From Candidatus Tenderia sp. (GTDB lineage: Bacteria > Pseudomonadota > Gammaproteobacteria > Tenderiales > Tenderiaceae), in assembly GCA_031416075.1 (NCBI GenBank), contig JANOSY010000088.1:9504-73503 (forward strand): a stretch of DNA of 64,000 nucleotides, read 5' to 3'. Below are positions 48,540 to 48,717 of the stretch, piece by piece. Below the pieces are notes generated by a model. The model was not told where the DNA came from, ran no database searches, and saw only the letters and a program-made list of their open reading frames with translations. The number at the start of each line of letters is the position of its first letter. Position 1 is the stretch's first letter. Both the position numbers and the translations under genes were made by a program.

Positions 48540-48608
48540 ATGGGTGGAATGAACGGTGGTCGTGGTGGTATGGGTGGCGGCGGTGGCGGTGGTGGCGGCG
48601 GCATGTAA
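48540..48608 (+). CDS. paralogous micro-ORF encoding a 22-aa peptide MGGMNGGRGGMGGGGGGGGGGM
   Basis: SD TAAGGAG is followed 7 nt later by the ATG, and the frame ends TAA. The 3' flank (hairpins plus terminator) is homologous to that of micro-ORF 1. Confidence 0.5.
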   Translation: MGGMNGGRGGMGGGGGGGGGGM

Positions 48609-48685
48609 TATGCCCGCGTCACGCACTCCCTCTCACTATTGAGAGGCATGTTGCGTACCGCTATGGCTAACGCCATACAATAAAA

Positions 48686-48717
48686 ATGGGAGGGCATGTC
48701 TGCCTCCCATTTTTTTC
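48686..48717 (+). terminator. rho-independent terminator downstream of micro-ORF 2
   Basis: ATGGGAGGGCA-tgtc-TGCCTCCCAT hairpin followed by TTTTTTT. Confidence 0.65.

What the first reader, a model, noticed from the sequence alone, without database searches (positions are those of the whole stretch)
48540..48717. Second, shorter paralog of the Gly/Met micro-ORF with the same 3' RNA architecture
SD TAAGGAG precedes ATG GGT GGA ATG AAC … ATG TAA, encoding MGGMNGGRGGMGGGGGGGGGGM. The 3' flank repeats the pattern seen after copy 1: a CCTCTC/GAGAGG hairpin, a TATGGC-taac-GCCATA palindrome, then a GGGAGGGCA/TGCCTCCC hairpin plus T7. Conservation of both the coding pattern (Met-start, Gly runs, C-terminal Met-stop) and the downstream RNA structures in two tandem units argues for function rather than a random GGC microsatellite.
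Basis: seen in the sequence. Interest (0 to 1): 0.7.

Follow-up and report, generated by a model that had tools for sequence, protein, structure and literature searches.

The report
Conserved glycine-methionine micropeptide gene, second copy
This is a real, conserved 22-codon gene for a peptide made almost only of glycine and methionine; it has its own regulated promoter and a structured RNA tail, and in uncultured Gammaproteobacteria it always sits next to, and shares a regulatory DNA box with, an ABC export pump, so it belongs to an undescribed envelope stress module.

Summary
Window 48540-48608 (+) encodes MGGMNGGRGGMGGGGGGGGGGM behind TAAGGAG, followed by three hairpins and a T7 terminator. 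It is a paralog of the 40-codon copy at 48005-48127 (75% identity over about 390 columns).

Eleven distinct homologous units were found in ten related metagenomic loci. All keep AGGAG, ATG and the stop in one frame. Variation lies at third codon positions, GGG codons are almost absent, and Arg is written with both CGY and AGR codons. This argues for translation. The 3' hairpins covary (9 of 29 pairs).

New findings:
- Every unit carries a TTAAG-N6-TTAAG direct repeat, 10 nt, then a -10 hexamer. This is the architecture published for BqsR.
- The same box precedes the convergent ABC exporter gene. In relatives it also precedes a Sec-secreted protein with Gly/Met loops.
- A QseB/PmrA-like response regulator lies beside the unit in six relatives.

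Best reading: a two-component-controlled micro-gene whose leaderless, disordered Gly/Met peptide is probably exported. Outside the cytoplasm it would act as a thioether-rich scavenger or ligand. Its function is inferred, not shown. No Pfam, NCBIfam, Rfam or literature match was found.

The parts
48362..48377 (+). Direct repeat TTAAG-GGAAGG-TTAAC upstream of copy 2. It is a BqsR/PmrA-type response-regulator box placed where a -35 element would lie.
   Evidence: The relaxed pattern TTAAB-N6-TTAAB occurs only 3 times in the 64-kb window, all in this locus. BqsR binds TTAAG(N)6TTAAG overlapping the -35 (PMC4358008).
48388..48393 (+). -10-like hexamer TAGTAT, exactly 10 nt after the box. The inferred transcription start is near 48400.
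   Evidence: The same layout (box, 10 nt, TAnnAT or TAnnCT) is present in all 12 units. The transcription start is inferred, not mapped.
48400..48539 (+). Predicted 5' UTR of about 140 nt. It has a CCUY-rich 5' end, a covarying hairpin and a conserved ATCAC(A)YTT motif before the Shine-Dalgarno sequence (TAAGGAG, 48527-48533).
   Evidence: 7 of 15 predicted pairs show compensatory changes, but the alignment of the L003 copies is poor.
48540..48608 (+). Micro-ORF copy 2: MGGMNGGRGGMGGGGGGGGGGM followed by a stop codon.
   Evidence: L001 carries the apparent ortholog, MGGMNGGMGGMGGRGCGGGGM. The 97%-identical strain L007 differs mostly at synonymous sites.
48600..48614 (+). Mini-hairpin GGCAT-GTAAT-ATGCC with the stop codon in its loop.
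   Evidence: Read directly from the sequence. GGCATGTAATATGCC is conserved in 5 of the 6 near-clade units.
48616..48661 (+). 3' UTR hairpin 1: outer stems plus the CCTCTCA/TGAGAGG inner stem.
   Evidence: Helices 1 and 2 have 6 pairs with compensatory changes, for example CTCTT/AAGAG in L001.
48662..48677 (+). 3' UTR hairpin 2: TATGGC-TAAC-GCCATA.
   Evidence: GTGGC/GCCAC in L003_a. A related ATGTGGC...GCCACAT hairpin is kept in distant units L014-L016, L031 and L032.
48682..48716 (+). Intrinsic terminator (GGGAGGGCA / TGCCTCCC plus T7). An A-run lies on its 5' side, so it can also terminate the convergent ABC operon.
   Evidence: sequence.
47825..48236 (+). Copy 1, the complete paralogous unit.
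- Box: 47825-47840
- -10 TAGGAT: 47851-47856
- SD: 47992-47998
- ORF: 48005-48127 (40 aa)
- 3' hairpins and terminator: to 48236
48801..50576 (-). ABC exporter of 591 aa. It is a half-transporter (ABC_membrane plus ABC_tran) without a peptidase domain. It is convergent with copy 2 and is the partner always found beside the micro-ORF.
   Evidence: Its homologs down to 56% identity are followed by a convergent micro-ORF in every locus where downstream sequence exists. The one exception is L013, which has an IS there.
50573..52591 (-). AsnB-like glutamine amidotransferase (N-terminus MCGI). Its stop overlaps the ABC start by 4 nt. It is found in the module only in the window's clade.
   Evidence: It is absent from the module in L013, L015, L017 and L031-L033.
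52688..52719 (-). Third box, TTAAGTACCTCTTAAC (52704-52719, overlapping the pnp stop codon), then 10 nt, then TATAAG (52688-52693). This is a putative regulated promoter for asnB-ABC. The predicted start falls inside the 5' arm of the pnp terminator.
   Evidence: Perfect CTTAAG-N5-CTTAAG boxes precede the ABC gene in L015, L018, L032 and L033, and box variants precede it in L013, L017 and L031.

Best explanation
Copy 2 (about 48362-48716) is an independent, translated micro-gene.

How it most likely works:
1. A QseB/PmrA/BqsR-type response regulator binds the TTAAG-N6-TTAAC repeat in place of a -35 element. It activates a transcript of about 320 nt.
2. That transcript consists of a structured 5' UTR, a strongly initiated 22-codon ORF, and a stabilising 3' UTR of three hairpins that ends in a bidirectional terminator.
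3. The product is a leaderless, intrinsically disordered Gly/Met peptide. It resembles a free-standing version of the (GGM)n tails found on GroEL and on a co-regulated secreted protein.
4. The same box precedes the adjacent ABC half-transporter. In relatives it also precedes a Sec-exported protein with three Gly/Met loops. The peptide is therefore most likely exported by that ABC pump.
5. Outside the cytoplasm its methionine thioethers would serve as a sacrificial sink or ligand for oxidants and/or soft metal ions during a cation or redox envelope stress.

Shown here: the gene anatomy, conservation, covariation, the shared box and the synteny.

Inferred: transcription start, activation by the regulator, translation, export and chemistry.

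Approximate probabilities for each step:

| Step | Probability |
|---|---|
| Real translated gene | 0.85 |
| Common regulon with the ABC exporter | 0.8 |
| Peptide is the exporter's cargo | 0.5 |
| Thioether scavenger or ligand role | 0.3-0.35 |
For: Coding:
- AGGAG lies 6-8 nt before the ATG in 12 of 12 units.
- All ORF lengths are multiples of 3 between conserved anchors.
- Gly codons are GGT 48%, GGC 46%, GGA 6% and GGG 0.4%, against 22% GGG in neighbouring genes.
- Arg is encoded by CGT, CGC, AGA and AGG.
- Differences between strains are mostly synonymous.
- Independent gene callers called the ORFs in L003, L004, L031 and L032.

RNA:
- 3' UTR z = -6.4.
- 9 of 29 pairs are compensatory, with 0 of 500 shuffles reaching that number.

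Regulon:
- The layout box, 10 nt, -10 hexamer is present in all units.
- Boxes occur only before micro-ORFs and before ABC, asnB or GM-protein genes. None occur in unrelated loci.
- The architecture matches that published for BqsR.
- A QseB/PmrA-like regulator lies divergent from the micro-ORF in L010, L014/L015, L016 and L031-L033.

Link to the ABC exporter:
- The micro-ORF is convergent right after the ABC gene in the window, L001, L003, L007, L010, L014/L015, L016 and L031-L033, while the other flank differs.

Extracytoplasmic location of the GM motif:
- The 55-member GM-protein family has a signal peptide, conserved Cys pairs and three GM loops.
- Its C-terminal tails end in M or R, like the micro-ORFs.

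Precedent:
- MrpX is a periplasmic Met-rich sacrificial peptide.
- L033 has DyP and cytochrome c peroxidase genes in the module.
Against: - No expression, translation or localisation data exist. The organisms are uncultured.
- Triplet-repeat slippage alone would keep GGN runs in frame, so frame preservation is only partly independent evidence.
- No response regulator of this type lies in the 64-kb window.
- The box before asnB-ABC overlaps the pnp stop codon and lies upstream of the pnp terminator. In L003 and L010 its second half-site is degenerate.
- The exporter's closest named family is MsbA, though below that family's cut-off. Its cargo could be a lipid, with the peptide simply a co-regulated neighbour.
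- Unlike MrpX, the peptide has no signal peptide and almost no charged residues. No methionine sulfoxide reductase gene was seen beside the module.
- The full-length fold pairs the G-rich ORF with the 3' UTR. This could mean there is RNA-level function as well.
Confidence: 0.5

Rival explanations
1. The peptide works in the cytoplasm or at the inner face of the membrane. It could be a free (GGM)n tail that modulates chaperonin or proteostasis function, or a small-protein regulator of the adjacent ABC transporter. In this reading the exporter carries something else, for example a lipid or envelope precursor.
For: - The composition is that of the GroEL (GGM)4M tail.
- The 50%-identity ABC homolog in L034 sits directly after groES-groEL. 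A different Gly/Gln/Met micro-ORF there follows an HSP20 gene.
- The ABC scores best against MsbA-type flippases.
- Small proteins that modulate transporters are well known (own knowledge: AcrZ, KdpF, SgrT).
Against: - The same motif occurs in loops and tails of a Sec-exported, Cys-paired protein in the same regulon.
- Known transporter-modulating small proteins are hydrophobic helices. This peptide has no such segment.
- L034 lacks both the box and the micro-ORF after its ABC gene, so it is outside the module.
Confidence: 0.15
2. In the window's clade the peptide is a precursor that the co-transcribed AsnB-like amidotransferase modifies before export. The most likely modification is amidation of the C-terminal Met carboxylate. 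This would make it a minimal RiPP-like system.
For: - asnB overlaps the ABC start by 4 nt and lies behind the same box.
- It keeps the N-terminal Cys nucleophile (MCGI), so it should transfer ammonia to a carboxylate.
- All units in loci with asnB end in ...GM with no basic tail. All units in loci without asnB end in RGR, GRR or RRR-type tails. Amidation and Arg tails could therefore be alternative ways to remove or offset the C-terminal negative charge.
- AsnB-like enzymes that amidate peptide C-termini are known from thiopeptide pathways (own knowledge, not tested here).
Against: - The correlation rests on a single phylogenetic split.
- Orthologs of this AsnB (57-73% identity) occur without the ABC gene or the micro-ORF in other lineages.
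- It passes the generic asparagine synthase cut-off (436 against 267 bits).
- It could instead amidate an envelope component, as the mDAP-amidating AsnB-like enzymes do (own knowledge).
Confidence: 0.12
3. The transcript is mainly a regulatory RNA, either an sRNA or a dual-function RNA. The ORF would be incidental or secondary.
For: - About 75% of the roughly 320-nt transcript is structured UTR.
- Hairpin 2 keeps its sequence (xATGGC...GCCATx) across clades.
- Synonymous GGA at codon 3 is conserved in 9 of 11 units.
- The ORF can pair with the 3' UTR.
- The unit has its own Rho-independent terminator and no downstream gene.
Against: - The strong SD-ATG is universally conserved.
- Third-position wobble is free while GG is fixed, and Arg is kept through CGY/AGR switches. 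Both point to selection on the amino acids.
- No Rfam family matches.
- The UTR sequences diverge strongly between clades while the character of the peptide is kept (the model built on the near clade scores only 16-27 bits on the far clade).
Confidence: 0.1
4. The ORF is a leader peptide of a transcription attenuator that senses Gly or Met tRNA charging. Read-through past the terminator would produce antisense RNA against the convergent ABC operon.
For: - The layout of short ORF, several hairpins and terminator resembles classical attenuators.
- The CCCTCTC arm of hairpin 1 could in principle pair with the GGGAGGG arm of the terminator (sequence).
Against: - There is no gene downstream in the same orientation, either here or in any relative.
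- The hairpins are separate, stable and covary as such.
- No 2:3-type alternative pairing is conserved.
- The unit has a dedicated regulated promoter.
Confidence: 0.03
5. The sequence is a non-functional GGN microsatellite, or the real gene is the antisense poly-proline ORF at 48506-48697 (-).
For: - All three sense frames and the antisense frames are open across the G-rich run.
- Low-complexity repeats expand by slippage.
Against: - The sequence is conserved at the same position in 10 loci whose ABC genes are only 56-97% identical.
- The promoter box, SD and terminator are all oriented for the + strand.
- Mixing GGT and GGC and avoiding GGG interrupts perfect repeats.
- The antisense ORF starts inside the terminator and has no SD.
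Confidence: 0.03

Closest known systems
MrpX, the periplasmic methionine-rich sacrificial peptide of Azospira suillum (PMC4436054)
   Same: - It is a small, disordered, Met-rich product.
- It is induced by a dedicated envelope stress regulator.
- It is proposed to act outside the cytoplasm through its thioethers.
   Different: - MrpX has a Sec signal peptide and 44% charged residues.
- It is controlled by an ECF sigma factor and is co-transcribed with a methionine sulfoxide reductase (YedY/MsrP).
- The peptide here is leaderless, about 77% Gly and nearly uncharged.
- It is controlled by a response-regulator box and sits beside an ABC exporter, with no Msr gene seen.
GroEL C-terminal (GGM)4M tail (PMC11978752)
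   Same: It has the same Gly/Met low-complexity composition, often ends in Met, and is flexible and unresolved in structures.
   Different: The GroEL tail is a covalent part of a cytoplasmic chaperonin. Here the motif is a free-standing gene product, and it also decorates a secreted protein.
BqsR/PmrA/QseB-type regulons (BqsR box TTAAG(N)6TTAAG, PMC4358008)
   Same: - The tandem pentamer repeat and spacing are identical, and the box overlaps the -35 position.
- The regulator beside the relatives' units scores best as QseB or PmrA.
   Different: - The signal is unknown.
- The regulator is not in this window.
- The known BqsR and PmrA regulons contain no Gly/Met micro-ORF, as far as the papers read here show.
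Small proteins induced by two-component systems (MgrB, PmrR) and dual-function RNAs (SgrS/SgrT). These are named from own knowledge.
   Same: Each is a short ORF with its own regulated promoter and terminator that is part of an envelope stress response.
   Different: Those peptides are hydrophobic membrane helices, or they are encoded on a base-pairing sRNA. No sequence similarity was found.
Peptide systems exported by ABC pumps without leader cleavage, such as MccJ25/McjD, and lasso-peptide clusters (AsnB-like enzyme, ABC exporter, small peptide)
   Same: A small peptide gene lies opposite an operon that contains an AsnB-family enzyme and a half-size ABC exporter lacking a peptidase domain.
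   Different: - The peptide has no Asp or Glu to form a lasso ring.
- There is no B-protein.
- The AsnB homolog keeps its glutaminase Cys and scores 200 bits against a cut-off of 525 for the lasso cyclase family.
Met-rich Cu(I) motifs (MXXM and MXM of CopA, PcoA and Ctr1; own knowledge)
   Same: MGGM, MGM and MGGGM spacings recur, and the location is inferred to be extracytoplasmic.
   Different: - There are no His or Asp partners.
- No cop or cus genes and no CopR-type box are present.
- Metal binding has not been tested.

Membership tests
BqsR/PmrA-type response-regulator regulon | A tandem 5-bp repeat TTAAG(N)6TTAAG that overlaps the -35 region of the promoter | tested here: met
   - u2: TTAAGGGAAGGTTAAC, then 10 nt, then TAGTAT.
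- u1: TTAATGAAAATTTAAG, then 10 nt, then TAGGAT.
- The layout is present in 12 of 12 units.
BqsR/PmrA-type response-regulator regulon | A cognate OmpR-family regulator of the QseB/PmrA/BqsR group | tested here: inconclusive
   It lies divergent from the micro-ORF in L010, L014/L015, L016 and L031-L033. The best NCBIfam hits are QseB (251-258 bits) and PmrA, both below their cut-offs. None lies within the 64-kb window.
BqsR/PmrA-type response-regulator regulon | Induction by the sensed signal, such as Fe(II), Fe(III) or another cation | not testable with these tools
   This needs expression data from a cultured or heterologous host.
MrpX-like periplasmic methionine-rich scavenger | A small, Met-rich, low-complexity product | tested here: met
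   u2 has 5 Met in 22 residues and u1 has 6 in 40. Relatives have 5-10 Met in 21-41 residues.
MrpX-like periplasmic methionine-rich scavenger | An N-terminal signal peptide for export | tested here: not met
   The peptide starts MGGM and has no hydrophobic segment. Export would have to go through the ABC pump, which is inferred.
MrpX-like periplasmic methionine-rich scavenger | Co-transcription or co-regulation with a periplasmic methionine sulfoxide reductase | tested here: not met
   No such gene lies among the module's neighbours in any locus examined. The rest of these genomes was not searched.
Lasso peptide gene cluster | A core peptide with Asp or Glu at position 7-9 for the isopeptide ring | tested here: not met
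   None of the 12 peptides contains an acidic residue.
Lasso peptide gene cluster | A lasso cyclase (AsnB homolog without glutaminase function) together with a B-protein protease/RRE | tested here: not met
   NF033535 scores 200 bits against a cut-off of 525. The N-terminal MCGI is retained. No B-protein gene is nearby.
Double-glycine-leader bacteriocin or microcin with a peptidase-ABC exporter | A C39 peptidase domain at the N-terminus of the ABC exporter | tested here: not met
   The exporter is 591 aa. It aligns to bacteriocin ABC profiles only from about position 145 onward, so the peptidase part is missing.
Leader-peptide transcription attenuator | A regulated structural gene downstream on the same strand | tested here: not met
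   After the terminator comes the 3' end of the convergent ABC gene. The same is true in all relatives.
Any Rfam RNA family, or any Pfam or NCBIfam protein family | A score at or above the family threshold | tested here: not met
   - Rfam gave nothing above E = 0.17 in the region. At gathering threshold the window gave only tRNAs.
- NCBIfam gave no hit for either peptide.
- phmmer against 1.84 billion representative proteins gave 0 hits.

The most novel reading that the evidence does not exclude
This would be a previously unrecognised export system for free (GGM)n peptides. Leaderless, fully disordered Gly/Met micropeptides would be pumped out by a dedicated ABCB-type half-transporter under a BqsR-like cation or redox sensor. 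Outside the cytoplasm they would form a renewable thioether buffer, alongside a secreted protein carrying the same loops. In the window's clade the co-transcribed AsnB-like amidotransferase would cap the C-terminal Met as an amide. Sister clades would instead carry Arg-rich tails.
Probability: 0.2. Interest if true: 0.8.

Novelty: new variant of a known kind. Interest (0 to 1): 0.62.

Why it matters
- Micro-ORFs of 20-40 codons made of two amino acids are normally discarded as microsatellites. Here comparative data indicate a selected, regulated gene family with a defined partner (an ABC exporter) and a defined control element.
- It gives a testable entry point to a role for Gly/Met low-complexity sequence outside GroEL. 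The function of that sequence in GroEL itself is still debated.
- It may be a second, mechanistically different example of a sacrificial or ligand-type Met-rich envelope peptide, after MrpX.
- It shows that a BqsR/PmrA-type box can be used to delimit regulons in uncultured Gammaproteobacteria.

Tried and rejected
- **Rfam.** An E-value-mode search of 47400-48900 gave only chance-level hits. A gathering-threshold search of the whole window gave only tRNAs.
- **Peptide look-ups.** NCBIfam on both peptides found nothing. Exact look-up of five peptides in the 15-billion-protein collection found none. A homology search through that index was therefore judged pointless. phmmer of the 40-aa paralog against 1.84 billion representatives gave 0 hits, as expected for low-complexity queries.
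- **Genome scan.** The genome-contig scan with the ABC protein returned only one relative, a 97% strain cut inside copy 2.
- **AsnB as the anchor gene.** This was rejected. Its orthologs occur without the module, and the module occurs without it.
- **Sigma-70 consensus scan.** It did not find the real promoter candidates. They lack a -35 element, as expected for activator-dependent promoters.
- **Sigma-54 promoter.** Considered by eye and rejected because the GG/GC spacing is wrong.
- **Literature.** Searches for Gly/Met-rich small proteins, MGGM, or ABC-linked Gly-rich precursors found nothing describing this system.
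Full report
**1. Checking the observation**

The sequence is as described.
- TAAGGAG lies at 48527-48533.
- ATG lies at 48540.
- The 22-codon ORF runs to TAA at 48606-48608 and encodes MGGMNGGRGGMGGGGGGGGGGM.

The 111-nt 3' flank folds into three elements:
- a compound hairpin at 48616-48661, with inner stem CCTCTCA/TGAGAGG;
- TATGGC-TAAC-GCCATA at 48662-48677;
- a terminator at 48682-48716 with a T7 run.

The fold has an MFE of -45.3 kcal/mol against -25.2 +/- 3.1 for shuffles (z = -6.4). The stop codon also lies in the loop of a GGCAT/ATGCC mini-hairpin (48600-48614).

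The unit is homologous to the upstream 40-codon unit (ORF 48005-48127). The homology covers not only the ORF and the 3' flank but also about 170 nt upstream (75% column identity). A covariance model of the 3' segment finds just these two copies in the 64-kb window, at 105 and 94 bits. Only two Gly/Met-rich reading frames exist in the window.

**2. Context**

The two units fill a 1.35-kb intergenic region that is AT-rich at its 5' end (29-30% GC). On one side is a Dabb-domain lipoprotein gene (47059-47445). On the other side, on the minus strand, is a convergent operon:
- an AsnB-like glutamine amidotransferase (50573-52591, N-terminus MCGI; TIGR01536 scores 436 bits);
- an ABC half-transporter (48801-50576) whose start overlaps the asnB stop by 4 nt and which has no peptidase domain;
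- pnp, rpsO, truB, rbfA and infB further along the minus strand (52716 onward, with gene identities from the syntenic loci).

**3. Relatives**

Related loci were fetched through AsnB and ABC homologs. They show that the partner that is always present is the ABC exporter, not AsnB.

Wherever sequence downstream of an ABC homolog of 56-97% identity is available, a convergent Gly/Met micro-ORF follows within 100-250 nt:

| Locus | Peptide |
|---|---|
| L001 | MGGMNGGMGGMGGRGCGGGGM |
| L003, two copies | one begins MPVVIAPPIIPAPPAPAPGG... |
| L007 | truncated by the contig end |
| L010 | MGGMGGGGMGGGGMGGGGGGMGGGGGM |
| L014/L015 | ...MGGGGRGGRGGRGR |
| L016 | ...MGGGRR |
| L031, L032, L033 | Arg-rich tails |

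- The one exception is L013, which carries an IS256-like transposase at that spot.
- AsnB orthologs without the ABC gene (L005, L006, L011, L012) have no micro-ORF.
- A 50%-identity ABC homolog (L034) has neither the micro-ORF nor the box.
- The gene on the far side of the micro-ORF differs between loci. This argues for linkage to the exporter.

**4. Is it translated?**

- All 12 units have AGGAG 6-8 nt before the ATG.
- ORF lengths of 66-126 nt are all in frame between conserved anchors.
- Near-identical strains differ by a whole codon (L014 against L015) or mostly by synonymous changes (window against L007: four synonymous changes and one Gly to Cys).
- Among 229 Gly codons, GGT and GGC make up 94% and GGG appears once. 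In neighbouring window genes GGG is 22%.
- Positions 1 and 2 of the codons are almost invariant, while position 3 varies freely.
- In the distant clade Arg is written as CGT, CGC, AGA or AGG at equivalent positions. RNA-level selection does not explain that.
- Gene callers independently called the ORFs in four loci.
- Caveat: slippage of a triplet repeat keeps the frame by itself. The in-frame lengths are therefore weaker evidence than the codon patterns.

**5. RNA structure**

On the six near-clade units the consensus 3' structure has 29 pairs, and 95.3% of cells are paired. Nine pairs show compensatory changes. Column shuffles gave 3.2 +/- 1.3 (0 of 500 reached nine), and slid controls gave 0-4.

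Hairpin 2 keeps a recognisable sequence (ATGGC...GCCAT, or ATGTGGC...GCCACAT) even in distant units. The near-clade model still detects those distant units weakly, at 16-27 bits.

The 5' UTR, inferred to be 120-170 nt, has three recurring features:
- It begins with a CCUC-rich stretch that pairs either with an internal GGAGGG or with the SD region.
- It contains a covarying hairpin.
- It has a conserved ATCAC(A)YTT motif before the SD.

The alignment of the 5' UTR is poor, so I make no claim beyond calling it structured. In the full-length fold the G-rich ORF pairs with part of the 3' UTR, so some RNA-level role cannot be excluded.

**6. The promoter and the regulon (new)**

Every unit carries a direct repeat YTTAAK-N5-YTTAAK, then exactly 10 nt, then a TAnnAT or TAnnCT hexamer, 130-200 nt before the ATG.
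- In the window the strict pattern occurs once, before copy 1 (0.17 expected by chance).
- The relaxed pattern occurs three times: before copy 1, before copy 2 (48362-48377), and at 52704-52719 upstream of asnB-ABC.
- In the fetched loci all matches lie either before a micro-ORF or before the ABC, asnB or GM-protein genes. Unrelated loci have none.

The motif and its position are those shown experimentally for BqsR of Pseudomonas aeruginosa: TTAAG(N)6TTAAG overlapping the -35 (PMC4358008). From my own knowledge, PmrA boxes are of the same type.

Fittingly, an OmpR-family regulator lies divergent from the micro-ORF in L010, L014/L015, L016, L031, L032 and L033. Its best NCBIfam hits are QseB and PmrA. 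No such regulator lies in the window or in the flanks of L001 and L003.

The box before asnB-ABC overlaps the pnp stop codon. Its predicted start falls inside the 5' arm of the pnp terminator, which would let these transcripts escape that terminator. This is an inference. In L003 and L010 the second half-site is degenerate.

**7. A secreted protein with the same motif**

In L014/L015, L018 and L032 a 300-330-aa protein is divergent from the ABC gene and shares a perfect CTTAAG-N5-CTTAAG box with it.
- It has a signal peptide and conserved Cys pairs.
- It has three Gly/Met stretches: two loops and the C-terminal tail.
- The tails end in M or in R/RR, exactly like the micro-ORFs.
- The family has 55 members, no Pfam or NCBIfam match and no name.
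- Its model (pLDDT 67) has a beta-rich core with disordered GM segments. The fold matches are unspecific.

This places the Gly/Met motif outside the cytoplasm in the same regulon.

**8. Mechanism**

The best-supported chain has three steps:
1. An envelope signal activates the regulator, which turns on the micro-genes, the exporter and, where present, the GM-protein.
2. The leaderless peptide is translated and exported by the ABCB-type half-transporter. This fold class includes the peptide pumps TAP and McjD.
3. The peptide's thioethers act as a sink or ligand.

The nature of the stress is open.
- BqsR and PmrA relatives sense Fe(II), Fe(III) or other cations.
- L033 adds DyP and cytochrome c peroxidase genes to the module.
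- Met-rich periplasmic peptides can be sacrificial oxidant sinks, as MrpX is.
- MXXM and MXM motifs bind Cu(I) (own knowledge).

The rival readings and their probabilities are given in the rivals section: a cytoplasmic or GroEL-tail-like role, an AsnB-modified precursor, mainly RNA function, an attenuator, and a microsatellite or antisense gene.

**9. Comparison with known systems, and novelty**

The locus works like a small stress gene controlled by a two-component system, and possibly like MrpX. It fails the defining tests for:
- MrpX-type systems (no signal peptide, no linked Msr gene);
- lasso clusters;
- peptidase-ABC bacteriocins;
- attenuators;
- every Rfam, Pfam and NCBIfam family tried.

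I found no paper describing it. I rate it a new variant of a known kind: a new micropeptide family with a new combination of parts and an unproven function.

**10. Verdict**

Interest is 0.62. The gene family and regulon are solid. The biochemical role is a hypothesis.

Noticed in passing
window 52688-52719 (-): A BqsR-type box overlaps the pnp stop codon and is followed after 10 nt by TATAAG. The predicted start lies inside the 5' arm of the pnp terminator hairpin (52670-52684). Transcripts from this promoter would lack the full terminator stem and could read into asnB-ABC.
   Followed up: partly
L003 9970-10095 (-): The second copy in this relative begins MPVVIAPPIIPAPPAPAPGG before the Gly/Met part. 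The extra 54 nt (CCA/GCA-rich) look like the reverse complement of a GGN run and could pair with the 3' half of the ORF. Whether this is a functional variant or an inverted partial duplication is unknown.
   Followed up: no
L015 4797-5777 (-); also L018 and L032 3882-4787 (-): These encode an unannotated family of Sec-exported proteins of about 310-340 aa (55 members, no Pfam). They have three Gly/Met-rich stretches flanked by conserved Cys residues. The gene is divergent from the ABC exporter and shares its box.
   Followed up: partly
Units in the window, L001, L003 and L010 compared with L014-L016 and L031-L033: Peptides in loci where AsnB precedes the exporter all end in Gly-Met. Peptides in loci without AsnB end in Arg-rich tails (RGR, GRR, RGRR). 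This is a single phylogenetic split, so it is only suggestive.
   Followed up: partly
L034 2858-6797 and 11211-11321 (-): A 50%-identity homolog of the exporter lies directly after groES-groEL, and this GroEL ends MGGMGGMGGMGGMM. A different micro-ORF, MGQGQGMGQGQGMGQGMGQGMGQGQGGMGGGM, follows an HSP20 gene near a DegP-like protease. There is no box here.
   Followed up: no
L033 3995-11782: In this relative the module is flanked by a DyP-type peroxidase (divergent from the exporter, sharing its box). The regulator is followed by a di-haem cytochrome c peroxidase (CCP_MauG) and a PAS histidine kinase.
   Followed up: no
L013 7729-8349 (-): An IS256-like transposase fragment sits where the micro-ORF is found in all other relatives, overlapping the end of the exporter gene.
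   Followed up: no
window 48540-48677: The arms of hairpin 2 (UAUGGC / GCCAUA) are nearly the same as, and complementary to, the recurring Gly-Met-Gly codon context GGU AUG GGC of the ORF. In the full-length fold the ORF pairs with this part of the 3' UTR.
   Followed up: no
window 47446-47824: A 380-bp stretch of 29-30% GC with no convincing ORF lies between the Dabb lipoprotein gene and the box of copy 1. The flanking genes are 50-60% GC.
   Followed up: no
window 30935-44711 (+): This is a run of genes for very large surface-type proteins of 2098 and 1872 aa. Their domains include DUF11, CarboxypepD_reg, OmpA, fn3 and a purple-acid-phosphatase N domain. Two smaller genes, one a DUF11 protein, precede them. 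The run is unrelated to the finding.
   Followed up: no
L035 7001-11650: Two tandem, distant paralogs of the GM-protein (38% identity) lie next to metG (methionyl-tRNA synthetase), without the exporter, box or micro-ORF.
   Followed up: no
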